64,000 bases of DNA from Amoebophrya sp. A120 (GCA_905178155.1 CAJINV010000004.1:3803519-3867518); one strand, 5' to 3'. Positions 670 to 49,700 are shown, counted from the first letter of the stretch. The notes: generated by a model not told the origin, from the letters alone. Translations and numbers: made by a program.

Positions 670-1488
670 GATGAAATGTATTTCTGTGATAATCGCTTTC
701 GTGATAGATTTTGCTGGTGCTCACTTGTTGTTGTTGATCAAAATTTGAAACGAAGCCACTTCTCATGATGAAGCAAACGCACGCGCGCCGAAGATCGAAA
801 TTAAGTACTGACAAAACGCATGCTGAACTGCAGCAAAGAGAAAGACTTAAGCAGCTAAATCATGATGAACACTTCAACTATCATCTTTCGGGTCTGAAAC
901 TACACCGAATGAAGATACGTTACTTTACTTTCGTTCTGCTGACGATAAAGGAATTACTTTACTTTCGTTCTGCTCGGCCAGGGCCTTCCGTTGTACCTCG
1001 ACCGCCATATTTATTTATCGCAAACGAAGCAGATGATCCGTGAAAGTGAAGTAGAAACACAAAAAAGGAAAAGGATCCTCCAGTGGTTTCGAAGATCAGG
1101 TCTTGTTCAAACAAAAGGTCATCTCCCTCCACGTGCAACATCCAAAAAGATAGAGATCATGATGAGAGGATCCACAAGCACGAGCAGAAAGTCGAGTTGA
1201 TAGAATGGTTCAACTCAAGGAATAAACGATCTTCTGGTTCGGAGTAACCTCGCGAAGCTAGCACTGTCGTGCCTATTCTTCAAACAGCGAATCCAACGGG
1301 TACAAGTAGGCTGAAGAGTAGTTCTTGTTGTTTTCCGGTACATCACTACAACATAGCGGCGCAAGTACGTTTGTAGAGGCGTTAATCTTCTTCTTCTACA
1401 GTAGAGTTTGTCGTCGTACAAATACCATATTTAAATTTTTTAGAAGCTTCTCTCAGGCCGACCTTCTTCTCGTTTCGCTTTCGAAAAA

Positions 1489-23626: not shown

Positions 23627-26600
23627 ATGCAGACGTTGCTCGAGGGAGGTCGACGTGGGGACGAGCAAGTTGTGGAAGACGAGATTCTTCCTAGCAAGAA
23701 AAAGGATACAGTGCTTACGGGTACCAACATCGTCACCACATCAACTACTACAATCGACGACGGAACATCAAGACACCTGGTGGAAATATCAAGAGCAGAC
23801 CAAACCGAAACCTCGGAAAGCAGCAGCACCAGCACAACTACTGCACCGGTTGTATTACCATTGCCGGTCGCGCAGCCGAAGCAAACCAGCTGCATAAAAT
23901 CTGTCGGCCCATCAATCTCTACAACGAGCCCCTCCCCAAAAGCGGCGCAACAAATCATCCCGATTCTCGGCACAAATGACAGTCTTCTGGTCACCGACAC
24001 GACGCATCTTCGGAGAAATAAGGTGCCTGCTGTAGGTGGAGTTCCGGGGGTCGTGAAGGTTCTTCCTCCTGTTGTTGGAACAGCTACAGAAGGAGTTACG
24101 GCGTGCACTTCGATTCCGAGCGCGAGTACGACCAGTCCAGGTGGTGGTGCTAATACCGCTGCTGCGGCGAAGAGTCCGTTGACCGGAGCTGGTGAGGCCG
24201 CCCCGGCGGCTGTAGCACTAGGAGGCTGCAGCTACACAGCAGCTGCGAGCGACAGTGCTAGTGTTATTAAAAGCGCCTCCAAAACCGCTCAAGTTATTTC
24301 GCCCGGCACAAACACCTCTGCGACACGAAAGATCATTCCGGTGCCGCCGAAAGCCTCTTGCGGCATTGTCGTTGGGAACAATTTATCTCGTGCAAAATTA
24401 CTTGATTGTGTCTATTGCGCTCGTATTGATTGTAAGCATTTGCATGCTAACCACACGGACCCCACACAACTACTTCCTAACGTGAGTCAGCTGCAGTACT
24501 TCCTGAAAAAATACATGTGAGAGTTTCGAGTTCGAGTAGCATCAAGTAAACGATAAAAATTTTGCAATGCATAAAACCCCTTTACCGCGAGCGTGACGGC
24601 GACGAGCGGCGGCGTACCGAAAAGCTTGCTAAAGACTGCGGCAGCTTCAAGCGGGGGTGATCATATTAAAGGCGCAAGTAGCAATTCTAACTGTTCCACT
24701 ACGGCAACTACCTCGTACAAGAACACGACAGCTGGCCCAGGACCAAACAATCCGCACAGCACTCCGTCTCTCGTTTCCGAGGCCCCGACGTCCAACACCG
24801 TGTCGCCGAATTTAACCCCCCTGCCCGCCTCTCTTTCCGATCTTAACAACTGCTGCGGGGGCTCGGGCGCGAGCGGCACGGAGGGTGACCTGGAAATCAG
24901 CGAATTCGAATTACTCGGCCGCCATATCGCGAGGAAAAATCCCCCCTCCCCTTACTGAAAAGGTATCTTTTTGGAAATTTGCGATGCTGATTTGTGGTCA
25001 CAAATCGTGTCTGTCTTGCAAGAAGGCAATCCGAGAAGGCCCCCCGCATTATGCCAGAGCGGTTTGTGATGCTGTTAGGCCTACAGCGTGGACTTTTGTC
25101 ATGCTGTGTGCCTATGTCAAAACCTCTCCACTCAGGCTTGATATGGGCCTGCAGTCCTCTACCGCAAGACGCGGCTGATTTGTGTACGCAAGTCCAGCAT
25201 CAGAAAGGTCGTTCTGATATGGGGAGGGGGTTCTTTTCCTCGTGATACGCCAGGTATCCTCATCATCCGAGGATTTGATACTGCCTGAACTCGAGGACGA
25301 GGAATTGGACGGGATCAGTCTGGGCACCGGACAGGAGCAGCACGAGGAGCCAGAACGAGGAGGACCTGGTGGTCATCTTCAAGTAGAACAGTTTCATCTC
25401 CCTATCGGAGATAACGCTGGGTGTACGAGTACAATTACCCCGGAGGTTTCATCTCAGGCAGTACAACCAAATCTGAAAGTAAAGCCTTCTTCGCCTCCGC
25501 TCGTCGCGGCGCACCGGATATTGTAAGGAAAAATCCCCCCTCCCCATAGATATCGAAAAGAAACAGAAAGTTTGTGATGCTGATTGTCAACCACAAATCG
25601 TAATCGACTTGTATTGCTAGAAGGCCAAGAGACGTAGCTGTTCCCTCTTTTGCAGACAATTTGTGATGCTGTTTCCCGTTTCCAGTTGCTTCCTGTCATG
25701 TTGAAGACGCAACAAGGCTTTTCCAATTCCACGCCAGCCAGTACTACGGTCCGCATCTCTTTCCTTCTAGTATGACCCTGCGATTTGTAATCACAAATCA
25801 TGCTACACAGATCCGCTTTTGAGTTTGGGGAGGGGGCGGGATTTTTCCTCACAATACCGGACGGTAATTATCCAGAAGGAAAAAGTCATCCTCGACGGCA
25901 CCCCGGCAGCGCGGTCGGACGGCACTACCCAGGGAGGACGCGCCGCGGGCTGGCAATGTCTGCGGTGCCGGAACTTTAACTCCACCACGGTCGGTAGCTG
26001 TCTCAAGTGCGAGCTGGCGCGGGAGCGATCGCAGTGGCAGTGCAAAAGCTGTAGCACCTGGGTGGCCAACGAATATGGCGATGGGACCATTGGATGTTCA
26101 GTTTATTATAGGGCGGCTACTAGTGTTTGTGATGAGAATGAGATACAGATATATGTACGTGCCATGTTGTACTTTCACCTCCGGAATGAAAATAAAACAC
26201 GTCTTGTACGAGTTCTCGCGCACCTAGCTCTTGCAACAATTACCAACCGTAGTAGCTCTGGACATCAATTTTCCGCGTGCATAGCCCCGACCCCCGGTGC
26301 CCATTGTGCTCTATGTGGGACGGTTCGCGCGAACCAGATGCAAAGCGGATCTGCGTCGGCCCCGGAGCGCATCGGGTAGGGTTTCTTGTTTTATTTGGGA
26401 GCAATTTCGTATCGAAACTTTCCGTGAGAAGTGCGATCGATATCGCTTTGAAAATAAATGCGAAGCAATGTGTAGGATGTTGTGCATTTTTTTAAACATT
26501 TTCATCTTGATGTTTATTTTGCTTTTTTCTCATTCCGCTTCCGCAGAACCCGCCTCCTTCGGCGTCGCACCTGGTACCACACCCCCCGCCCCACTCGAGC

Positions 26601-29600
26601 AGCGGGCCCGCAGCTCTCGGGCACCACCAGAGCAATCCACACCTAACGAGCGCCAATGCGACGCAGCTCGGCTCCGGGCTCGGTCAACCGCACGGGGTCA
26701 ACCAATGTTCTTCGGTCAACAGCACGCTGCTGGCCGGTGGCGGCAAAGGCGGCGGGAAGCTTCGCAAGCCGCCGCAATCGTGGCACTGTATGCAAGAAAA
26801 AAACTGTGTAAGTGTAACTCTGATTCTGTAATGCAGAACATGCAAGAGAGTTACGCCTGTCATGCCAGACAACCATGAAGTCCTCTTTCTTTGTGTGTTT
26901 TCCCTTACAAACCACGCATGACAGGTTTTCTCTGTCATGTCCGCAAATTTGTGATGCTGTCAGCCAAAGAAGGTATACACTAACACAGTTCTTTTCTTGG
27001 ATACACTGCGTGGAGTGCTACTACGACAACTGGGAGCAGCGGACGACCTGCAATAAGTGCTTGAAACCGCGAAAGGAGTGCGAGGGCCCAGACCTGGGCG
27101 TGAAACGGAAGTTGCCGGACCCCAGCAAGGCGTTGCTGCAGATTTCCGCCGAGTTCGCCGCCGGGCTGTCGCCCGGCCCGCAGGACGGCCTGCAAAGCGG
27201 GACCAGCTCGGGAGCGAACCGCACGCCGCCGCACCAAACGTCGACCAGTGCTGGGGCAGGTGGTGGTGAAAGCAGCGGCGGGCCGCAGGACCATTCCACG
27301 GGTGGTGGAGGTGGGCAAATGAACACCACCAGCACGACCAAAGGAGGACCAGGAACTACTTCTGCCCACCCAAATAGTAAACCGCCGCTCGAGTTCCCGG
27401 AAATTCCGGAGTTGGGGTATGGCTTGCTCAGTTGGAACAATGATCTCCACTGGAACAATAGTTTGTGATGCAAAATTATAGAAGATAATGCGCATCCGCA
27501 TGAACATGGCCTGTCCAGTAAGTAGCTCTCTGGGTAGACGTGCTCAGCATGATATTGATATTGGCGATAAATCTATGACACTCCAGAGCCAGCATTGAAA
27601 TCCGCACATACATTTTTACCTTATTGCAAAACTGGACCTACTTGTACTTTGCCATTCCGCGGCTTCCTTTACTACCTTGTTCCGGTTGAGATCGTTCCCG
27701 TTCTTTACTAGGGCATATGGGGATAAAGAGCGCGAGCAGGTGCAAGAATGAAATGATCTTATCTCGCGCTTTGCCGACTCCGCAGTTGCCGCCAGTCAAC
27801 GAGCAACATCTTCCGGGTGGTGTGCCGCACTCGAAATCGCACCTTCAGGGAGCGAAAATGGGAGCTGGTACTGCGAGTAGTTGTTTTCTCATGAAGGTGA
27901 ATTGCTATCGCTGAGGATGGCTCGTCAAGCACAAGCAGAAGTATTGAGTACAATTAACGGAGGCGGGTAGTTTCCGCATCCATCATGCATGATTAGATAG
28001 GAAAGAAAAAAGAAAAACCCCGATGAACAAACTGATTAAAGATAAAGACGCAAAAATTATTTCAGGCGGTTCTTTCCACGGTACCGACCACGGTAGTTCT
28101 TTGGAGCACGGAGGGCCACCGCACCCCGCACCGCCTTTTCAGGCGAGCTCCAAAGGGGCTGGTCACCACCACCACCATCCGGCGCATCACCACCAGAGGC
28201 CCGGCATGAACGGAATGGTAGACCAGCGCACGTATGGCGCGTCCGGCAAGGGAGGGCCGCACAACCACCATGTAGTTGGTCAACACCTTCATCCGCATCA
28301 TCCACAACATAGCACGGGGAACAGCACAGGAGGGGGAGGTCCACCAGGTGTAGGAGTTCCGCCAATCGGTGCAAATCCAAATGCAGCGGCAATGAGGCAA
28401 GATCAACACCATCTTTCGGGCACTAGCACACAGCACCAGCACGTGGTCCCAGGCGCTGGTGGGCCTCCGCAGGGGGGAAGTAACAACCACGGTACGGTGA
28501 ACAAGGGAGGTCCTGCAGGAAGTATGCATTGCACAAGCATCGTACTAGTATGAGTTGCATTTTTACAATCGGCTGAGCATGACAACGATATATGAAATGT
28601 GGAACTACTTACTTAATGCGTGACTGCAATTAAGTGCTTTTAGTTTTACTACGAGTACGACTACGATATACTTTTGCAATGCATAGGAGGCGGCGCACCT
28701 GCGACGACACAAAGCTCCTCCGCGTCCTCTTCCTCCACACTGCAGGGCCTGGCCGGCTTGCTCGGGTCGAAGTTTCAGTTCGCTGACTTGGAGCGCGCGT
28801 ACGCGAGTTCGCGGGAGCTGCGCGAGACCGCGGCTTCGCTATCAAATGCAAAAATGTCTGGGTCTGGAAGGTTGGAACTTGTGATGCTAACTGTGGACTC
28901 TAAAAAGATCTGTATTGCATGACCAGCAAGGGAGGCCACGTTTCTGCTACGCGGGGAGGGCATTTGTCATGCGGAGTAGGCATCAGGATCAGGAAGCCCT
29001 CTAAAAATCTGTGATGCTAGGTCGTGCAAAATATGCATGACAAGTCTCAGAATCCTCCAGACCCCGACACTTTTGCATTTGATAATCGCAGGGAATCTAC
29101 AACGTGGAGCAGCTGCACTCCACTCTGATGACCATCCTCGCACAGAAACGGGAAAAAGAGCAGCGGACCCCGCCGCTGCGGGCCAGTGCAAATAAAACCT
29201 CCACCGCGACAGCACAATCTTCGCAGTCGGCCGTGAAGGGTAAGCTTATGATGCAGTCCCTAAAAAGAGATGAAAAGAAAAAAATTATCTCGGAAGAAGA
29301 TGTGTGGTATTACGATAGGCAATTCTGATTTGGGCCCTTCATTGTCATTCGCTTGATTTGTTCGATTTCGTTCACATTTTTATGAGTGGCTTTGTTGTAG
29401 TCTTCCCGCCCACGACACAACTAAGGTAACGGCCCACCGCCCAACTTTCCACCAACGGTGCAGACCTTGCGCATGACGGACACGGGGCAGGTAATACCGC
29501 TGCAGCAGTGGAATAAAAAGATGATGGAAGACGTGGACTCGTTGAACACCCTTTTCAGCGACACGCCAGGTACAAAGTGCTGCATGTTAAAGGGCTTGTT

Positions 29601-31640: not shown

Positions 31641-34600
31641 GTCACGTAGAAAATTATTTTCACCATCGCATACGATTATAGGCGGCCCTTACAACGAGAT
31701 GGAGGGAATGTTACAGCCAGCGAGCTCCTACTGCACCACTAACGTACTTTTCTTACCCCTGCTACGACTTCTCACGTGGTCCTGTAGTCTTTTGCAGCAC
31801 CGCGAAGAGGTAAAAATAGGATGAAAATGTTGATCACAGATACAAGCACCAAGAGACCGATGAGGGCACGACTTACGAGGACCTGGTACATGGGATGGTC
31901 TGTGTATCAGATTGTTCCGTCAACACATCACCCGTTCTGACTCTCGTCTCTACTCAGTTGTCATGCAAAATGCAAAATGTAGCATGCAGTAGCGTCCTTC
32001 GCTGTTTAACATTTTTCGCATGGCAAGTTGTTCAGGATCCGGAGCCGGAGACATTAACACCACAGTCCGTGCGTGGGTTACAAATTGTTGTCATGCAGCA
32101 GGACCTCTATTCCATTTTCATCTGCCATTCATTGCTTGTGTTGCTGTTGTTCATGCAAACTGCGAATGAGGGGACGACACCAGGCGGGGCGATTGTGCAT
32201 TGGGATACTGTGTCGCAAAGCGGATCCTGAAGCGCTACACAATAATGGAGGAGAAGGAGCGAACCGCATCCGCATCCGGGAACACCGAACGGGCAGCTGC
32301 GTGATAGCGAACCGCATGATTCGTATCTAGGAAGAACACCGAGCGGTCGGCTGCGTCGTGAACTCGATAAATCGACTGAAACTTAAGATTTCGGAAAAAT
32401 GGGGAGTATGTCACAAGCGGAGAACTCGCTTCTTGATGATGTCTATTCGCACTTTTTTTCAACATCAACATAGATACCTACTTTACACAGGAGCTTTTCA
32501 GTTCTCCTGATGTATACAAGAGGTGCTAGTTTACTAAATTTTTCTCTTTATTTTCCACTATTTTTTTACCAAAGCTGTATTCTTGTGGTGGGTCGGTCGT
32601 GTAAATCACAATATTTTTCACCATCTCTCGGGATTTATTTTTTTTTGGTTTTCCTTTTCACTTTCACTTTACTACTTCTCACTTTCTCAGGTCTATCATT
32701 TCATTTTCAGTTGCGTTGTGTCGTGATTTTCTTTTTTTCTTTTACTTGTCCCAGCTGCAGGCTGGCGTGGGCAAGGAATGTTGCGGAAGGACTGCGTAGC
32801 TGGCCATATAATCACGCTGCTACGGAAAATTGTTATTTGTTTTCGGCGGCTCTAACTCCGAACTCTTGAACTTGATGGGTGTTTTAGATCATGATCTTTC
32901 TTCGTCTAGTATGGCCCTCTATTCGAGTCGATTCTCGATACTTCGTACCACCTTTATTTGGCGACAGTTAGTTCCTGTTCGCGACGAGAGCAAGGTACGG
33001 AATATTTTTAAGAAAATGTGCTTCTCGATGATAGATACAAGCCGACCCCTTCATCGTATTGACGTTTCCCAACTAGAGACAAGATTTTTGTGATGTTTTA
33101 GCTCTATTCTGGCTTTTGTTTTTAGTTTTACTCAACAGATCTCGACATTTTTTTTTACAACGAGGGCTCCTCCCGGGGCATCAGTTTTCATCATCTTGAA
33201 GCGGCCCTGCGGCCGCCCTAAACTAAGTAATATACAAGTAGCACTTTTTCATTTGGTGCCTTGCCTGTTTTGGTTTTCAATTGATGGTTTAAATGAGAAA
33301 AATGTTCTTCATGACCTTTAAGAAAGCTTGGGCGTAACAAGTATTTTCACCACAAGAAGAAACTGAAGAACGAGGCAGCTTCGTGCGATCGATGGGAGAT
33401 CTGCTCATTCAAGCATGAGTCGATTCATGGTCAGCATGAACGAACGAAGCTGCTGATCGAGGAAACTTTTTTTGACTGCCAAAACGTGAATCCACTTCCG
33501 GTACTGTTTTTGTTTCATATTATTTTTGTCGACCAAATGTTCTTCCATTGGACACGTACTTCTACCGTGTGGATACAAAATGCGGCATCATTTCTGTTTC
33601 AGTTGTGGCCTCTTGTTCAGTCTGTGCTACTTACGCAGCTAAGCCAAAAATGAGAAACAAAAGTATTGTTCTATGAATGTTGGAAACTTTTAATATGGAT
33701 CAAATATAAAATTCTGTTCATCTTTGTCTACCTCCTCGCGCGCACGAGCCAAAAATGCGCGTGCGTCTGTATGATCGCACACAAATTATAGAAATGCAAA
33801 GTTAATAAGATCAACCACCTCCGGAGATCTATCTTGCTTCGGACTCTTGTCGTTCGGTGATTGGTGGCGCGGTCCTGAAGATAAAAGTAAGTGGAATGAA
33901 AATATTAAAGTCATCATTCAGCTTGGTATGATATTTTAGGTATTAGTTCAACATCGGTCAAAGCGCAAGCACAGAGTGTAGTCACAACTCCTCGGAAAAT
34001 TAACAAATCAATGTGAATGTGTCGGTTTAAAGATATTTTTATTGTTTGTCGATCAAATCAAAATCGTGGTGTAATATGTCCAGATAGCAAGGTTCAAGTC
34101 TGTACCGATTGATCACGTCACTGACTGCCTCACACGGGCACGGCAGCAAAAAATGCAGAGATCATATATCAAAATCCGGCTCGTACAAGTACTAGTACAC
34201 CACCAGAAGGGACTGAGTTCCTCAGAGTTCTATTTGTTATGCACATGATGCACCCATAACCAACCGGAATGTTGACAGGCATTAACACTTGAATAAAACA
34301 CGAGGTCTCTCGAGTTCCGACTGCAGCGCTCTACTCAGTCATACTTGTTTTGCGTACACGATATATTACACATCTTCACCGAGTCTAGTGCAAGGCACAC
34401 AACGACGTTTTGAATCTAACTTGAGTTATTTGCAGATCTTCTTCGCTCATGCTCATCTACATCTTACTTCCGATAGATCGCCTACGCCTCGATTACTTTT
34501 TCCTGCAGATTTGTTTGTACCAGGAATAATTGCGGATTGCAGAAGAGGAGGCTTTTGTTCAAATTTTGGTTTGTTTGTTTGTTTGTGGTTACTTATGCAG

Positions 34601-35135
34601 GAAGGTGGTGCCGCTGCCAACTACCACGCGAATCTACTTGCATTCTTTTCGCATTTTTTTTTACAAGAAAAACAAAAATAAAAATACTTACAGGCTAGTC
34701 GGGTTTGAGATAAACAAAACGGAAACCTTAAAAACTTACGCAATTTGCTAGTTACTTACTAAAAAGACGAGAGTAAAGGATCGGGACCTGTGATTTTTAC
34801 CGGCGACCTGATAAAGAAATAATTTTTTTTGTGGCGTAAGTAATTTCAAAACAAGTAAATTGAGTTGTTCAAATACAAGAAATTGTCCGTTTGCTACCAC
34901 CAGTCTGACGTCTAAAAGGTGAACCGTTGAAAGTAGTATAGAAACTGAGTAGCATAAGCATCCTTGCCTGCTCTCGAATTACTTTGACACTTTTATTTCG
35001 AGATCGAAGTAGCAATCTTTTTTTTGTTAACTCATCAAAAAGCCAGCATAACCAATACAGATCCCTAGGATGTTGAAGCGTGACGGCCGTTGGGGTTCTT
35101 GCACGTTTTCTTGTGGTGCGCCGCTTCTCAACTCG

Positions 35136-38100
35136 ATGCGAGTGGCCGCGACTGCCCTTCTGTTCTTCCTTGTGGCCGAGGACCTCAATACCAGTCGATC
35201 CGGAGGTATACTATCTCCTGTTCGTGGGCTCCGGGTGAAACCACGACGCCAGACCACGAGGACCCCAAATGCTGACGGTGGCGACAGGTCTGTTGCAATT
35301 GGGAAGGAGGTGAAGTGGTTTTGCGACAAATGGAAGCTGTTCGCTAAAATCGCAGACTTTGGGTGGACGCGCCACGACATCACTGGGTCGCACCATAAAT
35401 TCGTGAAGACGGGACGGTCGCCGATCATCGTGGCCGTGCACGACAAACAGGGAATCCGCAGCGATGTTGCCCGGAACGTCCTGAAAAACTTGCGCGCCCG
35501 GGAGCTAGAGTACGAGACTCGCCAGGCCGCGGGCGTAGGTGAGCCGGAGGAACAGGCAGAACATGCGGGTCCGCAGCACGACAGCGGGCGCGGTCTGCGG
35601 AAAGAGGAACGGAAAGCCATGATGGAGCAGCTGCGACAGTTGATGGCGCGTGGCGCCCTGGAGAAGGAAGTAGGAGCAGTGGCGTCCGTAGCCGACCCGG
35701 ACGCGCTTGCGAGAGTGCGGGCAGAAGCCGTACGAGCTAAACAGGACGTAGAAAAAAAGAAGAAACAAGAGCTGGAAAAATGGTTGGAGTTTGTGCAAAA
35801 TTTGATGAATGAGCAACGACGGTTCACAACGGCGCTGTACGTCCTCGTGCACTACCTTGGTGGCAAGCGGGACTTTTTTGCGAAAAAGAGGGATGATTCT
35901 CCTGGGGGGGAGCTAGATTTTTTCGTAAGCCAGTCTTGGGAGGAGAAACTGAAGAAGGGACCCACCAGGAAGTTGTCCTTTCAGGGATTACACATTTCGC
36001 TAGCTCCTCCACAGGGGGCTATGTGTTCACTAGGGAAAGCACATTCCTCAGGAGAATCAATGTGTGTAATCCCCTGTGAACACAATGTGTCCCCTGTAAT
36101 TCCCCCAGGAGGGAAAGCACATTCCTCAGGGGATGATTCTCCTGGGGGGAAATGTGTTCGTACAATCCTGAAAGATGAACAAAACCATGCAAGAACAGAG
36201 CCAAAACTATGCAGACAAATTCTGTTCAGCGAAATTTCGCTCTTCCAAATTATATTCAATCCAGCTCGTTTCCTGCTTCGATTTTCAATCCAGCTCGTTT
36301 CCTGTATAAAAGCGGTTTTTGATGGAGCTCCCTCGCGGTCGTGGTTCCTGTTTCTTGAAACAACCAAGGCAAACAGGCTTGCAAGCTGAGCTCTTTGACG
36401 TAAAAAACCGCTGTAGCTGCTTTAGTTGCCGACAGATTTTGGCGTCTGATTACTGTCTATCAACGAATAAACTGCCAGCCTAAGAGAACACTCGTGACCT
36501 CACTACATTTGCTAGGGACGTTCATCGTTTTACTTTGCTATCAATTCAGATGACCATGACTTTCAGTATCCTCGGTTCCTGCTCGCCATAGAACTTGTTG
36601 AAGGCCGCTTCCAAGGAGCATGGCAGAGTTTCAGACTGTTTTTGCTATGCTGACCTGTTTTTTCTACGAACTGATGTTCCAGCTTCTACTTTCGCGGTTT
36701 TGCTTTTCGGACAACTCGAGTCGTATTTACATGCTGTTGCTAAAGATAAAGTTCTTCAAACTTCTGCCGCTAGCTTCTGAATTTGGATTTGCCGATTCCG
36801 CCCTCGCGACCAACTTCTTCTACCTCCCAATGAACGCCGCCAGGCTCGCCCAGATTCTCCGAGTGATTTATCCCACGAAAAGAGTGTTACAGTTACACAT
36901 TTGTTGTCAATTCAGCAACACAAGTTTCTCTGCATGAGAGAGAAAACTTGTACTAGTATAAATTGCATTACAAATTCGCTCAGCATTAGAAATGAAACTT
37001 GTAATGCCGTTTTCCCTTAAGAGAGAGATTTGTCATGCAATGCAGCAATTACTACGAGTACGATACTTTTGCAGTTCATACCACGAGGTACTGGACGATT
37101 CGCTCCTGGGTTGCCATGCAGGCGTAGTGTATCCACAGTAAATTTCCCGTACACGTACAAATGCGGTTCCCGCATGACAAAACTTGGCTTCGATCCTAGT
37201 TTAGCATGACAAGTCTTACGCTCCAAATTGGTAAAATTTGTGATGCATCTTGTACATCTACGGGAAATTTGTATTGCATATAGTGCACGAGGGTTTTACG
37301 CGAAGTTTTCTCGAAAATGACGTTCCTATCCACAGAAAAAAACGCATGCCATCCCCATCCATTTTTTGGATGACAGCCACGCCATCTTATGTATGTCTCG
37401 CATGACAAATTGGATGGGGATGGGTTTTTTTCTTTGGATAGTTCTCCTGATCGTCGTACAGATTTTTTCGTAAGCCAGTCTTGGGAGGAGAATCTGAAGA
37501 AGGGGCCACCCCAGCTGGATGCAAAGGAAACGATGGTCGGCGATGATGAAGCAGCAATGCGCAAGAGTCTGGCAGTGCTACACGGCGGGGACCACCACGG
37601 CAGCGTGCGCAGCAGCACACTTCTTCCCGACCTATTTCAACACTATCCCGAGTTGCTTGCCGTCCGCGATTTTTTTCTGTTTGAGGTGTTGTTCTCACAG
37701 GGAATCTCACTCAGCACGGAGCTTACGCACGTCATGGAAGGTCTGCATTTCCAAATTACGGGCGAGACAGGCGTGGTTCAGCCACTTTACGCGAGCGGGA
37801 TTGTTACAACCCCATCTGGTGGCCGCGTTGCAGCAGCCAAAAGCGGGGGGGTGTTTGAGTTTGTCCTAACCGAAGAGCCGGAGGTGGAATTGGTAGAGCA
37901 GTGGACCGCTTATAATGTTCGTGCAGCCGACAGCGCCAGTGATGACGAGGATGAAGCCGGCAGCGGATCGGATTCTTCTGGAAGCAGGTCGCGCAGTGCT
38001 GCGGGGGCCATTCAAGACTTGGCTGGTGTTGTGTCGCCGATGTCCAGACTGGGTGTGAGCATGATAGATGACGCGGACCGAGTTAAACAGCTCACGGAAA

Positions 38101-40820
38101 AGTATGAGAAGACAGTTTTCGCTCTCCTCGGGGCGCTGCACAAGGCGCAATCCAGAACGGGCAGGTTTGAATCCTGGAAAATTGACGAAGCGGAGCAGCG
38201 CTACTATGGCAAAGCCGCCGTGCGCATCCAAAATGATTTGATGGAGCGGGTGTTTCAGCTCTGTTACAACTCCATAATGGTCGCAAACCTCGACGAGATC
38301 AGCAAAGGGCCGCAAGACGAGGAGCAACGATCCGAGACACGGCTTCTTATGGAAGAATGGCTCACCGAGCGCTTGAGATTCGTAATCAAGTTGTTTGAGC
38401 CATTGCCAGCATCCGGTGGGAAGGCCTTGTTGCAGCTCGACAAAGCGGATCTGGTCGAAGTTTATCCTCGGATATTTCGGGATGTACTGCGGCACTACGT
38501 CGTCCAAGGCTTCGAGAACCTGCTGGATAGCCAGCCAGACCTTACGAGCGCATGGAAGAAGCAGGGGGACGTTACGAGGCAGAGAAACTCGTATCTGCGT
38601 GCTGTGAAGAAAGTCTGGCAGGAGAAGATCAAGCCTGCGTTTGACCGGCTCGACGTCTGGCAGGCAGTGGAGGAGAAGGTCTTGCCTAAGTACCCGACGA
38701 CGAGGGAAGAAGCATTACGTGGCCAGGACGTGGTGCCCAGCCAAGCAGGGCAGCATTTGTTTAACCTGCGCAAACCGCTGCGCGAGTGGTACGAAATGAG
38801 CACGAAGTCGCGAAACAATGGGGGCTACGAGTTCCTGCAGCCTGTTAGTGCCGTTAACCTGGGACATAGCGAGCGCGGCATCATAGGTATGGACTGTGTT
38901 TTTCCTGGCTGGGCGGAGCAAAGTCTGCTGCCTGCGCTAAGAGGGTACGCGGAAAGCTTCGTCCTCCCGTACGTGACAGCGCTGCGGCACGTCAAGCCCG
39001 GCGTGATGAATGCCGACCACGAGGGCGGGTGGTACCTTTTGGGCCGACACGTGCAACCTGCGGCGGTCATGGTCGCGCACGGCCTAGGTCCTGACTGGTA
39101 TAAGATCGACGGCGAAGTTCTCCCGAACGTGGTCACGTTCCGCGTATCTTGGTATGTCCTCCTTGTCGAGGAAGCACTGTATGGAGCTTTCATGAAAACC
39201 AGGAACGCTGTTGAGTTTCCCGCTTCTGAGGTTGCCCTGTTCCAGCAACTGTATTTTTCCTACGTTATGCGGGCCATGTACCTCGTCGAAAGGACGTGGG
39301 CACAGCAAGATGCTGTGGAAGGGGCCGGCAGTCGCGGCCGCGGCGCGTCCTCCACTTCTACTTCTACCCCCGAAGTCAGCTTGGCGCGCGTCTTCGGTCA
39401 CGCGGCGCGCCTGCGCCGCGCGCTGGTGTTCTCTTTTTCTGAGGGAGTTCCGGCGGACTTCCAGGCCGGGCCGCTATTCAGTGCAAATGTGTAGTCTACT
39501 GGGTCCTCTGAGGGATTGCAAGACCATCTGCCATGCAGGAAGCTTCAAATGGGCGCCGCTGTGAAGCCCAGGAATGCGAGCCGTAGTATGTATGATCACA
39601 GGTTTTGATGTTGAGAAGACTCCGCAACCCCATGTTCGGGTTGTTCGCAAAGGAGGTGGTTTTATAATTCTCTGCTCACGCAGACGCTATATTTTTTGTG
39701 ACGCCCAGGCCCAGAAGACTAATAGCATGACAACCTCGCGCGCGGACTCTTCCACGCCCAGTAGAGATATATTTGCAATGCATAGCCGCCCGCATCGGCC
39801 CAATCAATGGAAGGCAGCCGGACCACCGGGAGCGACCTTGTGGGCGATGGCTCGCGCGATGTTTTTTTGCAGGACGAAGAAAGTTCGGGGAAGGCAGGAA
39901 TGCTCGCGACGCTTTCTTACTACATGGAGGGGGCAGGAACTACGCGCGGGGGCGGGCCGACAAGTCCGCAGCATTTTCAGAATGCCCTCACAGTGTGGAA
40001 CTCACTCCAGAGGCGGCGTGAAGATGGAAAGGTCCAAGTTACCCTCACGCCTCAAGCCCTCGAAGCGTTAGGATCTACTTATGTGCATGATTCCAGTGAC
40101 CACCTCCCGGGAGACCACGAGCATGGAAATGACATGAACATCGAAAGGATGGGATTCGCCTTGCAGATGTCCGCTGCTGAAGCGGAGGCTGCCGCTGCGG
40201 ACTTTGTCGCGATCTATCAGAAGTGGTCGGAGCTGTATTTGGTGGCCCTGCTGGGGGTGGGTGGCCCCTCGCCCGATGTTCCGATGCACCGGGGCGAGTT
40301 CGGGCTAGTCTTCTGGAGGTTTCTCACAAAAGTGGTGAGCGACAAGCTGCAGCAATCAAGGTCACCCGTGGCCGACGAGTTACGACGAGCGCTCAAAAAT
40401 GCCAGGGAGATAAAGGCGACCCTGCAGGAGTGGCAGGAGAACCAACAAGGGACCTCCACGTTCGTGGCGCGCTTCCGCGATGACCGGCCCTTCCTGTATG
40501 GTGTAACGGATAGCGCCGTGGCTCTGAGAGACGGCCTCCTGAAATTCATAGATGAGGTATTCTCGTACTTCTCGGGCGGAACAAATAAACCCCTCTGGCC
40601 GGATGCGTCCACGGTTTCAGATTTGGTGTGGTTCGATGAAGATTATCCCGAGCAAAAAGCCTACCTCTTGGAAGTGATCGAGAGGCATACAGCAAGCCAA
40701 GTAAAAAAAAACGCGAAGCAAGGGCGGAAAACCCGTGCAAAAAAGAGAAGAAGGCGGCCGGCAGCCAAGCAACAAAAGAAGAAGACAGGCGGACGGAACG
40801 GCGGAAATGGAAGGCGGTGA
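35136..40820 (+). CDS. ~1270-aa protein: N-terminal signal peptide, HicA-like toxin domain, coiled coil, large helical region, basic NLS-like C-terminus; segments 35136-35959, 37505-39474, 39790-40820
   Basis: MRVAATALLFFLVA; FGWTRHDITGSHHKFVKTGRSPIIVAVHDKQGIRSDVARNVLKNL; KTRAKKRRRRPAAKQQKKK. Removing the 1545-bp DR-flanked insert and introner 39475-39784 keeps the frame. Confidence 0.65.
36878..37080. mobile_element. Introner family B (left end rearranged)
   Basis: Family B right TIR; CCACG at both flanks. Confidence 0.65.
37130..37280. mobile_element. Introner family H
   Basis: TIR TATCCACAGTAAATTTCCCGT; DR TAGTG. Confidence 0.9.
37327..37440. mobile_element. Short introner (D-related)
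   Basis: TATCCACAGAAAAAAAC...GTTTTTTTCTTTGGATA; DR GTTCC/GTTCT. Confidence 0.8.
39475..39784. mobile_element. Divergent introner (family J)
   Basis: TATTCAGTGCAAAT..TCTACTGGG / CCCAGTAGA..ATTTGCAATGCATA; DR GCCGC; removal fuses the 701-aa and 337-aa ORFs in frame. Confidence 0.88.
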
Positions 40821-43726
40821 TGAAGGTAGCAGTGTATGTTTGGGAAGGAAGAACGAAAGGAAGCACGGAAAAGCCTCGCTGTTGTAATATGCTGTACTCC
40901 GCCTGCAGCAGCTGCGTGCTTATACAATATTTTGTCTTTACAAGAATTTGAACATACTTGCTACATGCGATTTTACTTAAGCTGACGCAAATTTTGTGTA
41001 TGTTCGAACCTTTCGTGTGTTTAGCTTAGCATCGGCCCGTGCGTAGAATTGCAAGCTAGCAAGCGTCTGTGCATCTGAACGCCAAAAATCGACTTTTACC
41101 TTTACGAAGAAGTAAAATACTTCTCCTGAAGGCGCAGGCCTATCAGCGCACTAGTAGTTTTAAGCAGAGACTCTAGTATAGCCTTTGCGCACCGTCGAAA
41201 GAACTCGGCCGCCAGCGCAAGGAGAAGCAGACTCTTGCAGGCGCTGCCCGAAAAAAGTGGCTTCGTCTTCTGCAAAATTTCAGCTTCGGAGCAGAAGACA
41301 CGCAAAGACAAACTTGCACTGTAGTGTGCGATCAGTTTTTTTGAAAGGTTTTCTGTGAAAGGTTTTTGTGAAAGGTTTTTTTTTTGGTAGGTTTGGTAGG
41401 TGTAAGCTCAACAAAAAATAAAGCTGAAGAGGTGTTTCAGTTACCTTGCTTTAAGTAGGAAAGGTTCCCCAGGATTCCCTCCGGTTCTGTTGTCTGCTGA
41501 AGAAAGGAAGAAATCTTGAACAAAACGCGAACTACACTTCTCATTTCATGGCCGATCCTGGAGCTGCGAGTGCGTGGCTTCAGTTTCGAGTCCGAGTTCG
41601 GAGGCAGATAGACGCCCTTCGCTCTTAGAGATGGTCTTAGAGTAGCTTTCATGTCCATTTCGTTTTTTCACCCGATCATGCGATGCTTCATCCAACAATC
41701 AAAATAATGTCAGACCGAGGAAGGGTGGCACGGGGCTTCGGTCACGTGTTGCCCTTCCTCACGCCAACCCGGGAAGAGGACAACCGCAGGGGCTGCTGAT
41801 GTTCAGCCACGAAAACCTGCACTGGGCGAAGTTGTGCCTGCTGCTGCCGCAGCAGGCTGGAAGCACGTACGTAGATACGCGCCTCAGTACGTCTGAAATA
41901 CCGAAGAAAACCTAGTTTACCGCCTGTTCACAGGCACCCTCGATCACACTAACTAACACGTACTGAGGCTAGGCTCGACCGGGTGAGTAGGTATGCCTTT
42001 GCAGGCTTAGAAACCGCCCAAGATCTCCCATATCGCCCCCTGTAGATCTAAAATTTTGTATACAACGAGGCGAAGACCATGGATTACGGTGGAGACCCAC
42101 GGCACTAGAGTATCTATGTATGACCCGGCGCGTGCAAGAGTTGATCAGAAGCAGGGGTAGTAGTGTAGTTTTTGCTGTTCAGTAGCTGAAGGGACCATAC
42201 AAACAGTAATAAGAGTCTAACAGAACCACAGACGCCGTGGTACGAGAACAAAGAAAGAGATCGGCCCTGTAAATCCAAAAAAAAAAATGTGTCTTTCCAT
42301 AAGTTCCAACTCTGCAGCGCGGGATTCAGGCATGCCCTAAAGTTAACAAGTGTAATCAGCACGGGTTTGGGGTTTTTACTTACATAGTGGCGTCGGTAGA
42401 AGAAAAAAATAATTTACAGATCATTTTTGTAAGCAACTTGTATATAGCTCAGGGTTTAGGGCAAAGGCGTGTTCTCACGTCAGAGAGGCGACCACACTGC
42501 TCCTTCCTAGTCGTGTGCCAGGCTGCGAACAGATGTAAACCCGCTCCTGTCTATCGAGGGATTGAGTAAGAGGCAACGCCAATCACCACCTATCTAAAGC
42601 TAAAAAGCTCGATCATTCCAAGTCCAAGTCCACTATCTCTATAACAACAACACCCTTTAGAAAGTTCGATGCCCTCTACTACACTCTAGTGCTTGCGTCG
42701 TGTCTCCCTCCGAGTCCGAAAGTCGTTAAGGCGTTTGTCACGCCTCGATGATGTAGTCGAGGCAAGTTGCTAATTCATCTGATGTTTGCCTTCATTGAAC
42801 GCAACAAAAGCAAAACGAAGTACTCAGCTAAGGTCCGAAAGATTCTGCGCAGATGACTACACGAAGAAGCGAGCTATTTGGACGATCGGAATCCGAACGC
42901 CAAGAAATTGAAACTCACTACAACGACGGTCGAGCTTCTTAATGATGACTTGCTTCGCGCCAAATGGAAAGCGCATAACATTTATATACTAATGCGTACA
43001 GGTCGTGACAGGAGGAATAACCAGCAGCAATTACAAAAGCGAAACAAAAAGGGCACGTCCCTACCTCTAGTGATTGATAGTAAGCAGCTCGCATGCATGT
43101 TCTCCGTCGTGTGGGTGCCGTTGTGATGTGTGAATCTGTCGTCTTCGTTTGCTTTAGTGAGCACAAAGCGTCTCGTCCGGAAGCCTAACAAGCACAGCTG
43201 CCACCGTATTTCTATTCTGTTGCTGGTATGTTGTGGTGTCGGTCATTTTGTGTTTCAGTTGGAGGGCATCTTCTCCCATGAGTGCGTACCCACAAGAACC
43301 TATGGAGTGCTGCTGCTTCTTCGAGCGACAGCGAGAAAACTACGAAAAACCAAATTTTACTCAAATCATGAGCGGCGCCTGGTGTGCAGCCCGTTTTTGT
43401 CTTTTTCGCTTTTGAGCACTGCGTGCAGATGTGTCCCTTGAGAGCGCTTAAGTACCTATACATAGATACAGACTTCTCTGGATAGAAGAAGTCCACGCCA
43501 AGCCAACTTGTTTGGGGTCTCCTGGTCCTTGAAAGAAGCTCATCCTCGTCTGAGATTATTAGAGCCACCTGGTGTCCTCGAGCGAAGAAAACAAGAACCG
43601 ATACGATTTTATTACTGCTGGGCGGATGAGTGCTGCTGCCCCTGCCGCTAAAGCGGGATCTGAACGGGGTCGCGGCGGTTTGCGTGGCGGCACCTGGGCT
43701 ACTGCGCGGTCTACCAAGTCGTTTTT

Positions 43727-45093: not shown

Positions 45094-45698
45094 GGGAATA
45101 GGGAGAGATAGGGAGAGTAGGGAGATAGGGAGAGTCCCCCTAAAAGGGGGCAGCAAAAACAAAACCAAACTGATCGCAAACAGCATGGCACGGCCACGAC
45201 AACATCTTTCGAAATCTGGGGTGGAAATGCTTCCGAGTACCCCCCTCCTCGGCGGCTCCTCCCGGGGTCGGGGAGGCGCGGAACCTTCCCTGAGGGGATT
45301 TATCCTCTTGCGGGCCCGTAAGGCTCAGGTCTTGCTCCTCAGCTGGCGAAGGCGGAAAGGTAAAGTGGCCATTTCAAATTTCCTTCGATGAGGGAAAGTT
45401 GAAGTGGCCATTTCAAATTTTCCTCGATGGGGAAAGTTGAAATGGGCAACTCGATTTTCCTTCGATGAGGGAAAGTTGAAGTGGCCACTTCAAATTTCCT
45501 TCGATGATTCAACGGGCGCGCGGTGCTCGTTCGCCTTCGAATCGATGCAACGCGCGCGCGTGCATGAATGCGCGCGCGAAATTTTTTTTGGTTCTACGGC
45601 TTACCAAAACGGAGCATACCATCGCGATTCAAGGGGAATTAGGTTTACCACGGCTCTCCCTATTGACCTATTCTCCCTATTCCGCTCTCCCTATTCCC
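45094..45698. mobile_element. Non-autonomous TIR/foldback element with internal ~39-bp tandem repeats (45361-45505)
   Basis: GGGAATAGGGAGAG-type arrays on the left, inverted CTCTCCCTATTCCC arrays on the right; TTCGATGAGGGAAAGTTGAAGTGGCCA units. Confidence 0.65.
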
Positions 45699-46712: not shown

Positions 46713-49700
46713 ATGTCGGTCTCTGGCGCCTCCATGACCGACCACCACGATGGTGTGGGGTATCAAATGCAAAAATGTCTGGGTCTGGAAGATTTCGAGA
46801 TTTGTCATGCTAGTCTAGCATGACTCTGCACTCTGTATTGCGTGGCCACCAAGAGGTCCTCTTGCCTGTCATGTAAAAGCGCAGTTTGTCATGCGAAATA
46901 CGCAGCACAGAAACACGAAAAAACTTGTCATGCTTACCGGCGCATTACAGAGCACTTTATTGTTCACGGACTTGCGTCACAAGTTTCCAGACCCAGACAT
47001 TTTTACAGTTGATATGGGGGGCGGTTTAACGACGATCGTCGAGCTCGACTTCGCGATCCTCTCCGCGCTACTTGGTCCGGAGTGGCGCGAACAGCGGTTG
47101 CAGCACTTGGATTTCAGTGATCCGGCGTTCGCCCTGGAAACGCTGAAGATCAAGGAGCACGAGGAGGACAAGGCGTTTGCGCCCTTGCTGCGGTCCAAGG
47201 TGATTTCGATCGACCTCACGAAGAACAAGCTCACATCCCTGTTGCAGCTCCGCGGGGAATATCAAATGCAAAAATGTCTGGGTCTGGAAGATTGCGAGAC
47301 TTGTCATGCTGATCTGGCATGGCCCTTAAATCTGTATTGCGTGGCCACAAACAGCCTCTCTCGCCTGTCATGCAAAAACACAGTTTCTCATGCGGAAGAC
47401 GCAGCACAGAAGCACCAAAAAACTTGTCATGCTTGGCGGCGCATTACAGTGCATTTGCTATTGACTGTCTTGCATCACAAGTTTCCAGACCCAGACATTT
47501 TTGCATTTGATAGGGAAGATTTCCCGTCCTTGAAAATTTTCCGCTGCAAGTCGAACGAACTGCTCTCGGAGAACGTCCTACTCGCCCTGCCCCGGCTAAA
47601 GGAGCTGTATCTCGGGCGGAACCAACTGACATCCATCCCGGCGCTGGCCGGGCTGCCCAGTTTGGAGATCTTGATTCTGAATCACAACCGCATCCAAACC
47701 GAACTGTTCGGGAAGGATTTGGCCAAGGGCGGGAAGGAGTTGCGGAAAATCGATCTTCGGGGGAACCTATGCATTGCAAAAGTATCGTACTCGTACTGAT
47801 TGCGTTTATGCATTACAAATCTCTTTATCAAGGCAAATCCGCATTACAAATTCAATTTGTAATGCTAAGAGAATTTGTAATGCAATTTATACTAGTACGA
47901 TAGGATACAGATACTTTTGCACAGGATAGAACCAGATCGCCAACAACCCGAACAACTTTCTAAAGTCTCTGATCCGGTTAGCGTCTTTATCGAACCTGAA
48001 CATGTTCAAAATTGCGGAGAACCCATTCTGCGGCCTGTTCCCCGAGTACCAAGCGGTGCTGTATGGGTTTCTCTGCTCCGCGGGCATCAATTTGCGGCAG
48101 CTGGACCGCATTCAGGTCGCGGGAGAGAAGGACACGCACATGTTGGAGGTGTACGAGCAACTGGTTACCACGGTCTACATATTAAAAGGAAATATTAAAG
48201 TCCCCCCTCTCCATATAAAAACGAAACTTCTGATGGATTTGCGTACACAAATCAGATTTGTCTTGCAGTAGAGGACTGCAGGCATGCACTAAGCCTGAGG
48301 AGCGGCGAGGTTTTGACATTGGCGCCCAGCATGGCAAACGTTTACGCTGTTGTAGGACCAACAGCGTCACAAATCGCCCGCATAGTGCTATCTAATGCAG
48401 CGGAGCCATTGCCTCGGCCTTCTACTTCTTGCAAGACAGCCACGATGGCCACAAATCAGCATTGCAAATTTTCAGAGCCGTGTCATTGCGATATGGGGCG
48501 GGGGGATTTTCCCTCACGATACTACATCGAAGACAGCGCGTATGGAGAGAAAAAAGTTTGTCACAGTCACTAACTTGCAGGTTTTGCATTACAACTTTTC
48601 TCAGCATCACAACTTCTCCTTGTATTGCAGAAACACTAGGGAAATCCCTTATGAAGTGTGGCTGTGATGCATTTTGACGCATGACAGACAATTTTGTATT
48701 GCAAAAATGCCCATGAGTGATCGTGACGAACTTTTTTCTTTTGATAGCGCGACCATGAAGGAGTATTTGTTTGACGCGAAGCTGATATCCCCGAACTCCG
48801 GAAAATATCCTGTGCAAAAGTATCGTACTCGTATTGCAATCATGCATTACAAATTTTTTTCTCAAGGTAAATCCGCATTACAAATTTTATTTCTCATGCT
48901 GAGGAAATTTGTATATGCATTTATACGAATACGAAACTTTTGCAGTTCATAGAAAAGTCACTTTTGACACGGACCTTCCGAACTATCACGGTGTAGCAGG
49001 AGGGGGTGGTCTACTTCAAGACCCCCAACATGGCGTTCTCAACGAGGAGGTCCACGTCATGGCTGGGGATTTGTTACTGCTCGATGGCAAGCTCGCGGGC
49101 TCTATGCTGTGCAAAAGTATCGTACTCGTATAAATGTAGGTCTTGCATTACAAATTTCTTTGTCAAGGCAAATCAGCATCTTCATGCTGACAAAATTTGT
49201 AATGCATTTATACGAGTGCGATACTTTTGCAGTTCATAGGCTACAAACTGGAGACCTTCCTTCTCGCGAACCCGGCGAACGCGTTCCAGTACCCCTTGCC
49301 GGTGCGGTATCGCAAGGAAAAAACTGTGTATAGTGTAAATCTTCGATGCAGAAAATGCAAAACGCTTACACTTGTCATGCTGGAAGTGCGTCACAGGCTA
49401 CTACCATACGTGTTTCCACGTACTAGCTGCGCATGACAGGTTTTCCCTGTAATGCAAAACGAATTTGTGATGCTGCTCTTCCTACAAAGTTACACTTATA
49501 CAGTTTTTTTCTTGGATGTGCGGTTTCTGCAGCTCTCCCACCTGTCCACGCTTTTCGACGAGAGGTTGGACGCGAACATGCAGGGCAACAAAGTCAACAA
49601 ATTATTTGCGTCCTCCCGAAGTTCCCATAAACCTCGGCTTCGCGAGTCCAACGGGCAGCCGGACGAGGCCCCGAAATTGCCAATGTTGTCGCAATTGATA

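What the first reader, a model, noticed from the sequence alone, without database searches (positions are those of the whole stretch)
35136..40820. Candidate secreted, nucleus-targeted effector carrying a bacterial HicA toxin (RNase) domain
Seen: a hydrophobic N-terminus (MRVAATALLFFLVA). At ~35331-35495 is LFAKIADFGWTRHDITGSHHKFVKTGRSPIIVAVHDKQGIRSDVARNVLKNL, followed by a coiled coil, a long helical body and a K/R-rich end (RAKKRRRRPAAKQQKKK). Known: HicA toxins of HicAB type II toxin-antitoxin systems have the pattern GW/F-x(5-6)-GSH-x2-F...V(P)xH...ILK, use the GSH histidine catalytically, and are essentially prokaryotic or phage proteins. No HicB partner is visible here. Inference: a horizontally acquired mRNA interferase repurposed by an intracellular parasite as an exported effector. 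Some Amoebophrya strains develop in the host nucleus. The gene sits in a gene-poor island and has few introners, consistent with an accessory locus.
Basis: partly seen in the sequence, partly recalled or inferred. Interest (0 to 1): 0.88.

Follow-up and report, generated by a model that had tools for sequence, protein, structure and literature searches.

The report
Bacterial RNase toxin in parasite gene
A nuclear gene of what is likely an algae-infecting parasite (Amoebophrya type) carries a bacterial-type HicA toxin domain, predicted to cut RNA, behind a likely export signal and with no antitoxin gene nearby, so it may be sent out to degrade host RNA; a 1.5-kb insertion interrupts the gene, and only one of four transcript assemblies joins the toxin part to the long tail with the predicted nuclear signal.

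Summary
The HicA domain is real. It passes the Pfam cut-off, keeps the Gly and His that bacterial HicA needs, folds αβββα and matches solved HicA structures first. It sits in an intron-bearing eukaryotic gene covered by RNA contigs; no hicB is in the window (98). A signal-like N-terminus and a K/R tail exist.

The single "signal–HicA–body–NLS" protein is not established. A 1,545-bp insertion with a 48-bp direct repeat interrupts a 1,274-codon frame. One of four RNA assemblies skips it in frame, inside a 33-nt exact repeat where assemblers can mis-join. Two read the HicA exon on into the insertion (417 aa, no NLS), and two give the body its own spliced leader (10, 13). The body has no relatives or fold match.

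Best reading (0.4): an antitoxin-free HicA RNase, exported into the host to cut RNA. Secretion, activity, host targeting and transfer route are inferred. Ten paper searches listed no eukaryotic HicA. The scan's notes held nothing on this. New variant of a known kind.

The parts
34300..35069 (+). Likely long 5' untranslated leader (start not mapped)
   Evidence: Covered by RNA-type contigs in X2 and X4; 2 ATGs against 13.6 expected, while CAT is 11 against 14.3 (Poisson P 1e-4)
35070..35135 (+). Upstream in-frame ATG and 22 extra codons used by the public gene model
   Evidence: P0001; codon score -0.10 +/- 0.15, inconclusive
35136..35177 (+). Signal-peptide-like N-terminus, 14 residues (short for a cleaved signal)
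   Evidence: KD 2.74; crude rule met by 4 of 825 ATG frames; SignalP not available
35313..35510 (+). HicA (dsRBD-like) toxin domain; Gly84-Ser85-His86 with the His codon at 35391-35393; second His102
   Evidence: Pfam above cut-off; G, H, H invariant in 40 of 40 rows; AF2 pLDDT 80.6, alpha-beta-beta-beta-alpha; HicA structures at Foldseek ranks 1-6 and VIA ranks 1-4
35511..35914 (+). Charged, probably helical linker; rest of exon 1
   Evidence: GC3 0.62, codon score +0.24; coiled coil not tested
35915..35962 (+). First copy of a 48-nt direct repeat (first 33 nt exact), same reading frame in both copies
   Evidence: Family D1, 96% identity, spacing 1,545
35915..37459 (.). 1,545-nt insertion interrupting the frame; skipped in X3, retained in X2 and X4; holds three introners and a captured gene piece
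   Evidence: Joint 35914-37460; read-through codons GC3 0.40 and codon score about -0.2; DNA run X5 covers it at depth similar to the flanks
35963..36389 (+). Read-through tail (141 codons plus stop) of the unspliced HicA frame; non-coding in character; product 417 aa from 35136
36950..37080 (.). Introner-family element with many relatives in the window
   Evidence: blastn self-search
37081..37459 (.). About 105 nt of another gene in three pieces (37081-37124, 37281-37321, 37441-37459), split by introners of 156 and 119 nt; spliced onto the body in X1 and X2
   Evidence: Joints; the same pieces occur with foreign flanks in X4 and without the 156-nt element in DNA run X5; in the body's frame the spliced leader has a stop
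37460..39469 (+). Body exon; starts with the second repeat copy; first in-frame ATG at 37533; orphan sequence
   Evidence: No hit in Pfam, NCBIfam, PHROGs, PADLOC, PDB sequences or 1.84e9 representatives
39470..39784 (+). 315-nt non-canonical intron (introner: terminal inverted repeat, 5-nt direct repeat), removed in frame
   Evidence: Joint in X1; anatomy; the X5 DNA contig length of 3,546 equals the unspliced span
39785..40820 (+). Last exon, ending in a K/R-rich NLS-like tail at about 40704-40784; stop at 40818-40820

Best explanation
This nuclear gene encodes a HicA-fold domain with the catalytic Gly and His intact, behind a likely signal peptide and without a HicB gene nearby, and it likely works as an exported RNase that cuts host RNA. 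Shown: the domain, its motif, its place in an introner-bearing gene, RNA cover, and a 1,274-codon frame interrupted by a 1,545-bp insertion with a 48-bp duplication. Inferred: the domain came from a prokaryote or phage. The signal peptide would move it into the ER as it is made, keeping it away from the parasite's own RNA and so replacing the antitoxin. After secretion it would degrade host transcripts or nucleolar RNA, for shut-off and nucleotide salvage. The gene appears to be read in more than one way: a 417-aa signal-HicA product without the NLS, a headless 990-aa body with its own leader, and perhaps the full 1,274-aa protein when the insertion is spliced out. Only that last form carries the NLS-like tail (my odds that it is made: about 0.45).
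For: Domain. Residues equivalent to B. pseudomallei Gly22 and His24, needed for toxicity (PMC3969222, passages), are kept. Fold. An independent Atlas model of P0001 residues 78-150 also aligns to HicA clusters (TM 0.61-0.75). Signal-like start. No HicB in the window. The coding signal stops at the first repeat copy and resumes at the second, in the same frame. X3 contig 9 (4,055 nt) equals exon 1 plus both body exons, with one open frame of 1,288 codons. Only 3 Cys in 1,274 residues suits a reducing compartment better than a lumen (inference). Biology: the host nucleolus shrinks and host transcripts fall during intranuclear infection, and the authors could not identify the responsible nucleases (PMC9478091, passages); parasite RNases were invoked in PMC7793755 (passages). 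HicA has been recruited as a secreted toxin tip in bacteria (PMC9424270, passages).
Against: The join is seen in 1 of 4 contig sets, all from one study, three under one sample label. It lies in a 33-nt exact repeat, longer than the 31-nt word of the assembly. Its mean depth of 16.3 is also what exon 1 at 3-5 and the body at about 19-20 would give. X1 runs from the small exons through the repeat into the body unbroken; X2 and X4 read exon 1 into the insertion. No GT-AG cut exists inside the repeat. The signal is only 14 residues, an upstream ATG in a better context exists, and no signal predictor was run. The AF2 model was given a HicA alignment, so it leans to that fold; Foldseek E-values are only 0.03 or higher and VIA Z is 6.6-7.6 (rmsd 2.0-3.2, 57-63 aligned). 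No paralogue in the window and no relative anywhere, so there is no conservation test. The conserved Pro before the second His is missing (P41A did not affect toxicity in PMC3969222).
Confidence: 0.4

Rival explanations
1. A gene in decay: the insertion split a once-whole gene. The HicA half, with a junk tail, is leftover transcription, and the X3 join is an assembly path through the repeat.
For: The insertion is in the DNA at full depth, the two repeat copies have diverged (2 of 48), and three introners sit in it. The body has its own spliced leader in 2 of 4 sets. The depth arithmetic fits a chimeric contig. No homologues.
Against: Both halves stay open (260 and about 1,014 codons) with coding-like GC3, catalytic residues are intact, the leader is depleted of ATGs, and all 4 RNA-type sets cover the HicA exon.
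Confidence: 0.2
2. A cell-intrinsic RNA-binding protein or RNase: translation starts at 35070, the hydrophobic stretch is a buried helix or anchor, and the K/R tail directs it to the parasite's own nucleus or nucleolus, for example in antiviral or anti-transposon defence.
For: The upstream ATG has A at -3 and is covered by RNA contigs. HicA domains in prokaryotes are linked to defence and occur fused to large helical proteins (PMC10865869, abstract and passages). A basic tail cannot tell host nucleus from own nucleus.
Against: A signal-like pattern at this start is rare by chance (4 of 825). An active HicA with no HicB nearby would need another restraint.
Confidence: 0.2
3. Secreted, but not a host-nuclear effector: a digestive RNase of the phagotrophic vacuoles, or a weapon against bacteria or competing parasites.
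For: Mature trophonts digest host chromosomes in vacuoles (PMC9478091, passages). The most often seen HicA-bearing form lacks the NLS. HicA serves as an interbacterial toxin tip.
Against: The protein is nearly Cys-free with a very basic tail; no feature points to lysosomal or bacterial targeting (inference).
Confidence: 0.17
4. The HicA match is chance or bacterial contamination.
For: Pairwise E-values are weak (0.06 against PDB, 0.2 against phages).
Against: Pfam cut-off passed, shuffle control passed, two independent structure routes agree; the flanks hold introners and an EMG1 gene; one DNA contig spans 34300-35944.
Confidence: 0.03

Closest known systems
HicA toxins of type II HicAB systems (Pfam PF07927; PDB 6G26, 5YRZ, 4P78, 6HPB)
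   Same: Alpha-beta-beta-beta-alpha dsRBD-like fold, G-W, G-S-H-H and second His kept, net charge +7.
   Different: Embedded in a eukaryotic gene with introns, behind a signal-like peptide; no hicB in the 64-kb window; only 24-46% identical to any hit.
Fused HicA proteins, classes 11-14 of Gerdes 2024 (PMC10865869; abstract and passages seen)
   Same: HicA as one domain of a larger, largely helical protein without a separate antitoxin gene.
   Different: All prokaryotic; partners are HicB or SMC domains, and the text has 0 occurrences of 'signal peptide', 'protist' or 'fungi'. The body here matches neither HicB nor any Pfam family.
HicA tips of S8-PTS and RHS polymorphic toxins (PMC9424270; passages seen)
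   Same: HicA recruited from TA systems as a secreted weapon.
   Different: Bacterial, C-terminal tip, with immunity genes and a peptidase; here the domain is N-terminal and eukaryotic.
Host-nucleus effectors of alveolate and oomycete parasites (Toxoplasma GRA16/GRA24, Theileria TashAT, Crinklers; recalled, not tested)
   Same: Signal peptide plus basic NLS; Crinklers carry toxin domains of bacterial origin (recalled).
   Different: No sequence relation tested or found; no export motif identified; none is known to me to carry HicA.
Amoebophrya introners (PMC7789003; section 10 and passages seen)
   Same: The 315-, 156- and 119-nt introns have terminal inverted repeats and 4-5 nt direct repeats.
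   Different: The 1,545-nt skip has a 48-nt direct repeat, about ten times the 3-5 nt described, and no terminal inverted repeat was found.

Membership tests
HicA toxin domain (PF07927) | Profile score at or above the Pfam gathering cut-off | tested here: met
   28 and 31.6 bits against 27
HicA toxin domain (PF07927) | Alpha-beta-beta-beta-alpha dsRBD-like fold | tested here: met
   AF2 pLDDT 80.6 with a HicA alignment; HicA entries rank first; independent Atlas model TM 0.61-0.75
HicA toxin domain (PF07927) | Catalytic His and preceding Gly of the GSH turn | tested here: met
   Invariant in 40 of 40 rows; required in PMC3969222
HicA toxin domain (PF07927) | RNase activity or growth arrest | not testable with these tools
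   Needs an assay
Type II HicAB toxin-antitoxin system | Adjacent or fused hicB | tested here: not met
   HicB profile: 6 of 6 controls found, no hit in the window's six frames; the rest of the genome is not held
Type II HicAB toxin-antitoxin system | Small stand-alone toxin (50-100 aa) in a prokaryotic operon | tested here: not met
   Domain lies in a 417- or 1,274-codon eukaryotic frame
Secreted host-nuclear effector | Cleaved signal peptide | tested here: inconclusive
   Crude rule met (4 of 825); 14 residues; alternative upstream ATG
Secreted host-nuclear effector | Signal, effector domain and NLS on one transcript | tested here: inconclusive
   Joined in 1 of 4 RNA-type contig sets, inside a 33-nt exact repeat
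Secreted host-nuclear effector | Delivery to the host compartment | not testable with these tools
   Needs localisation
Secreted host-nuclear effector | Infection-stage expression | not testable with these tools
   Contigs give no stage, strand or level
Horizontally acquired gene | Nested in a prokaryotic clade in a supported tree | not tested
   No tree was built: 60 residues at about 30% identity; named hits are all prokaryotic
Amoebophrya introner (315-, 156-, 119-nt introns) | Terminal inverted repeat, 3-5 nt direct repeat, spliced from RNA | tested here: met
   definition from PMC7789003
Amoebophrya introner (1,545-nt segment) | Terminal inverted repeat and 3-5 nt direct repeat | tested here: not met
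   48-nt direct repeat; no inverted pair at its ends among the 25 longest of 74 pairs shown

The most novel reading that the evidence does not exclude
A eukaryotic parasite has domesticated a bacterial toxin-antitoxin RNase as a secreted host-nuclear effector, using the secretory pathway in place of the antitoxin. It switches between a full 1,274-aa nucleus-targeted form and a short form by splicing out a 1.5-kb insertion through a 48-nt direct repeat, a kind of intron not described for this genus in the paper read.
Probability: 0.22. Interest if true: 0.88.

Novelty: new variant of a known kind. Interest (0 to 1): 0.6.

Why it matters
HicA RNases are described from bacteria, archaea and phages. 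An intact one in a protist parasite, behind an export signal, is a concrete candidate for an open gap: host transcripts and the nucleolus decline during intranuclear Amoebophrya infection, and the nucleases were not identified (PMC9478091). The 60-residue domain is easy to assay. The locus is also a possible snapshot of an insertion turning into an intron, or of a gene splitting in two.

Tried and rejected
No genome is held, so paralogues and a distant HicB could not be sought beyond the window; none lies in the window.

No RNA holder was listed as such. The three raw-read RNA runs X8-X10 do not cover the gene and hit only a repeat at 40945-41086 with many differences, so they say nothing here.

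Homologue searches that came back empty: domain alone, near lengths; longer lengths gave only the window's own P0001 among 30 candidates; body against 1.84e9 representatives; pattern scans of viral, metagenome and genome contigs. The profile search of longer proteins gave 51 hits among 6,618 candidates. I read 22 of the 50 that are not P0001: these looked like prokaryotic HicA with spurious extensions, HicB fusions or a toxin tip, and none was recognisably eukaryotic. The search is word-limited and seeded with bacterial sequences, so it does not show absence in eukaryotes. From recall, untested, HicA-superfamily hits are annotated in some predicted fungal proteins; this would lower the novelty.

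Single-sequence AF2 of the body gave pLDDT 38, and its Foldseek rows are meaningless. The Atlas could not read the body.

The idea that 36400-37459 is a decayed copy of exon 1 was rejected: score 152, reached by 58 of 300 shuffles and 214 of 286 random pieces. Its last 103 spliced nt score above 1,000 of 1,000 shuffles, but the unspliced control scores nearly as high (55 against 49), so I do not rely on it.

Ten paper searches (listings only) showed no paper on a eukaryotic HicA. The 'hica' hits in PMC13170202 were 'HiCanu'. Subscription papers and supplements were not seen; the supplements of PMC7789003 and PMC6176090 may list this gene. Five look-ups in the scan's notes gave nothing bearing on this. 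No complex prediction was run.
Full report
Setting. The window is eukaryotic: an EMG1/NEP1 gene in pieces and an LRR gene, and many non-canonical introns with terminal inverted repeats and short direct repeats (15 found by a strict rule). This fits the Amoebophrya introners described in PMC7789003 (passages and section 10 seen). The HicA frame is in public collections as a 439-aa model on an 11.76-Mb contig, from NCBI, nr and EukProt. The genus is my inference from intron anatomy; the strain was not identified, so whether it develops in the host nucleus is unknown. No whole genome is held.

The HicA domain is real. Pfam PF07927 scores 28 bits in the first frame and 31.6 bits on 35313-35510, against a cut-off of 27. 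PHROG 353 'toxin' matches at E 9e-5. Of 3 PDB sequence hits at E up to 10, the best 2 are HicA, weakly (E 0.06, 0.14). A profile from 39 prokaryotic rows, without the query, scores the domain 29.4 bits; the best of 2,000 shuffles scores 10.6, and the next frame in the window 8.2. In a 40-row alignment the Gly and His of the GSH turn and the second His are invariant. These correspond to Gly22 and His24, required for toxicity of B. pseudomallei HicA; the missing Pro was dispensable there (PMC3969222, passages). AlphaFold2 gives alpha-beta-beta-beta-alpha at pLDDT 80.6, but it was fed HicA sequences. Foldseek ranks HicA-family entries 1-6 (probability 0.93-1.0, E 0.03 or higher). VIA-align ranks them 1-4 of 48,161 chains (Z 6.6-7.6, rmsd 2.0-3.2, 57-63 aligned). 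The Atlas's own model of P0001 also aligns to HicA clusters (TM 0.61-0.75); its feature scores of 0.85-0.86 are only a lead.

No antitoxin nearby. A profile from 28 genes lying behind hicA in fetched loci finds 6 of 6 HicB-bearing controls and nothing in the window. The rest of the genome could not be searched.

N- and C-termini. The ATG at 35136 starts a basic residue plus 12 uncharged residues, the most hydrophobic window of the frame. A crude rule, made after seeing it, is met by 4 of 825 ATG frames. It is short, and an in-frame ATG at 35070 with A at -3 could add 22 residues; RNA contigs cover both. The 770 nt upstream hold 2 ATGs against 13.6 expected, as a plus-strand leader would. The tail is 56% K/R over 25 residues: NLS-like, but silent on whose nucleus.

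Gene structure is the weak point. The parts lie in three frames. So X1-X3 behave as RNA. Between exon 1 and the body lie 1,545 nt bounded by a 48-nt direct repeat (96%; first 33 nt exact), read in the same frame in both copies. Coding character ends at the first copy (GC3 0.62-0.76, then 0.40; codon score +0.2, then -0.2) and resumes at the second. Removing the segment gives 1,274 codons from 35136. The simplest history, inferred, is an insertion with target duplication into one gene. The segment holds three introners and about 105 nt that also occur elsewhere with other flanks and without the 156-nt introner (X4 record 19 and the X5 joint), that is, a captured piece of another gene.

What RNA shows. 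Four RNA-type contig sets were laid, all from one study, three under one sample label. X3 has one 4,055-nt contig joining 35914 to 37460, with no cover of 35938-36522 or 37342-37458. X1 and X2 instead splice small exons from inside the insertion onto the body; that leader has a stop in the body's frame, so the body would start at 37533 (990 aa). X2 and X4 read exon 1 on into the insertion, giving 417 aa without the tail; X4 does so in one 1,915-nt contig. The X3 joint lies in a repeat longer than the 31-nt assembly word, and its depth of 16.3 equals a mix of exon 1 at 3-5 and the body at 19-20. Graph cleaning could remove the competing branches (recalled assembler behaviour). No GT-AG cut fits; AT-AG, GA-AG and other cuts are possible, and over 60% of introns in the two strains of PMC7789003 are non-canonical. 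I put the full-length protein at about 0.45.

The body is an orphan: no hit in Pfam, NCBIfam, PHROGs, PADLOC, PDB sequences, 1.84 billion representatives or pattern scans (one search gave two chance-level hits for the last exon). Its model is unusable.

Mechanism. Best reading (0.4): an antitoxin-free HicA RNase, made safe by co-translational entry into the ER and exported to cut host RNA. In an intranuclear strain the host nucleolus shrinks and transcripts fall, and no nuclease was identified (PMC9478091, passages); parasite RNases were invoked in PMC7793755 (passages). PMC6176090 has 0 occurrences of HicA or signal peptide in its main text. A parasite already inside the nucleus might not need an NLS, so the short form could also serve (inference). 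Rivals: decaying split gene (0.2), cell-intrinsic RNase or RNA binder (0.2), vacuolar or antibacterial enzyme (0.17), chance or contamination (0.03).

Comparison with what is known. It is a member of the HicA domain family by score, fold and motif. It is not a HicAB system: no hicB, and not a small stand-alone toxin. Gerdes 2024 lists 14 contexts, all prokaryotic, including fusions (PMC10865869; abstract and 12 of 16 passages). HicA as a secreted toxin tip is known in bacteria (PMC9424270, passages), HicA in phage defence in PMC13092281 (passage), and the family's general properties in PMC7180214 (passages). Ten searches listed no eukaryotic HicA paper, and the 22 long hits I read looked prokaryotic. 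These searches are limited, and I recall untested database annotations of HicA-like domains in fungal proteins. Horizontal origin is likely but no donor can be named.

Verdict. A real, apparently intact HicA domain in a protist parasite gene with a likely export signal: a new variant of a known kind, cheap to test. The secreted, nucleus-targeted, single-chain effector remains a hypothesis, weakened by the interrupted gene and mixed RNA evidence. Interest 0.6.

Noticed in passing
window 40945-41086: A 142-nt element in or next to the 3' end of the body transcript. Several variants of it are very abundant in all three raw RNA runs (hundreds to over a thousand reads) and in X1 contigs. In X9 and X10 the same flank lies before and behind it, hinting at tandem or circular copies. 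No Rfam match; folding z-score -1.0. Could be a small RNA or a MITE family.
   Followed up: partly
window 37081-37459: Captured piece of another gene inside the insertion; read on the minus strand after splicing it resembles an ankyrin repeat (recalled resemblance, not tested against Pfam). Two introners sit in it that the source copy appears to lack at least in part.
   Followed up: partly
window 35890-36149: Short nested direct repeats (20 nt at 35890 and 36130; 24 nt at 36032 and 36110) straddle the left edge of the insertion and may be scars of the insertion event.
   Followed up: no
window 35897-35904 and 37442-37449: An 8-nt word lies at the same 1,545-nt offset, 18 nt upstream of both copies of the 48-nt repeat; possibly microhomology used in the insertion.
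   Followed up: no
window 1444-3759: EMG1/NEP1 methyltransferase gene in pieces; ordinary housekeeping gene.
   Followed up: partly
window 46819-47799: Leucine-rich-repeat gene with introners, followed by long unannotated helical-looking exons at 49437-53458.
   Followed up: no
window 45330-45510: Tandem array of about 40-nt units in the gap downstream of the gene.
   Followed up: no
window 24900-28550: Small introner-separated exons with Cys-spaced motifs resembling RanBP2-type zinc fingers (recalled resemblance; no Pfam hit on two frames at E 0.01).
   Followed up: no
P0045: A metagenomic protein with a Hint/PT domain (PF07591) followed by HicA: another polymorphic-toxin tip use of HicA.
   Followed up: no
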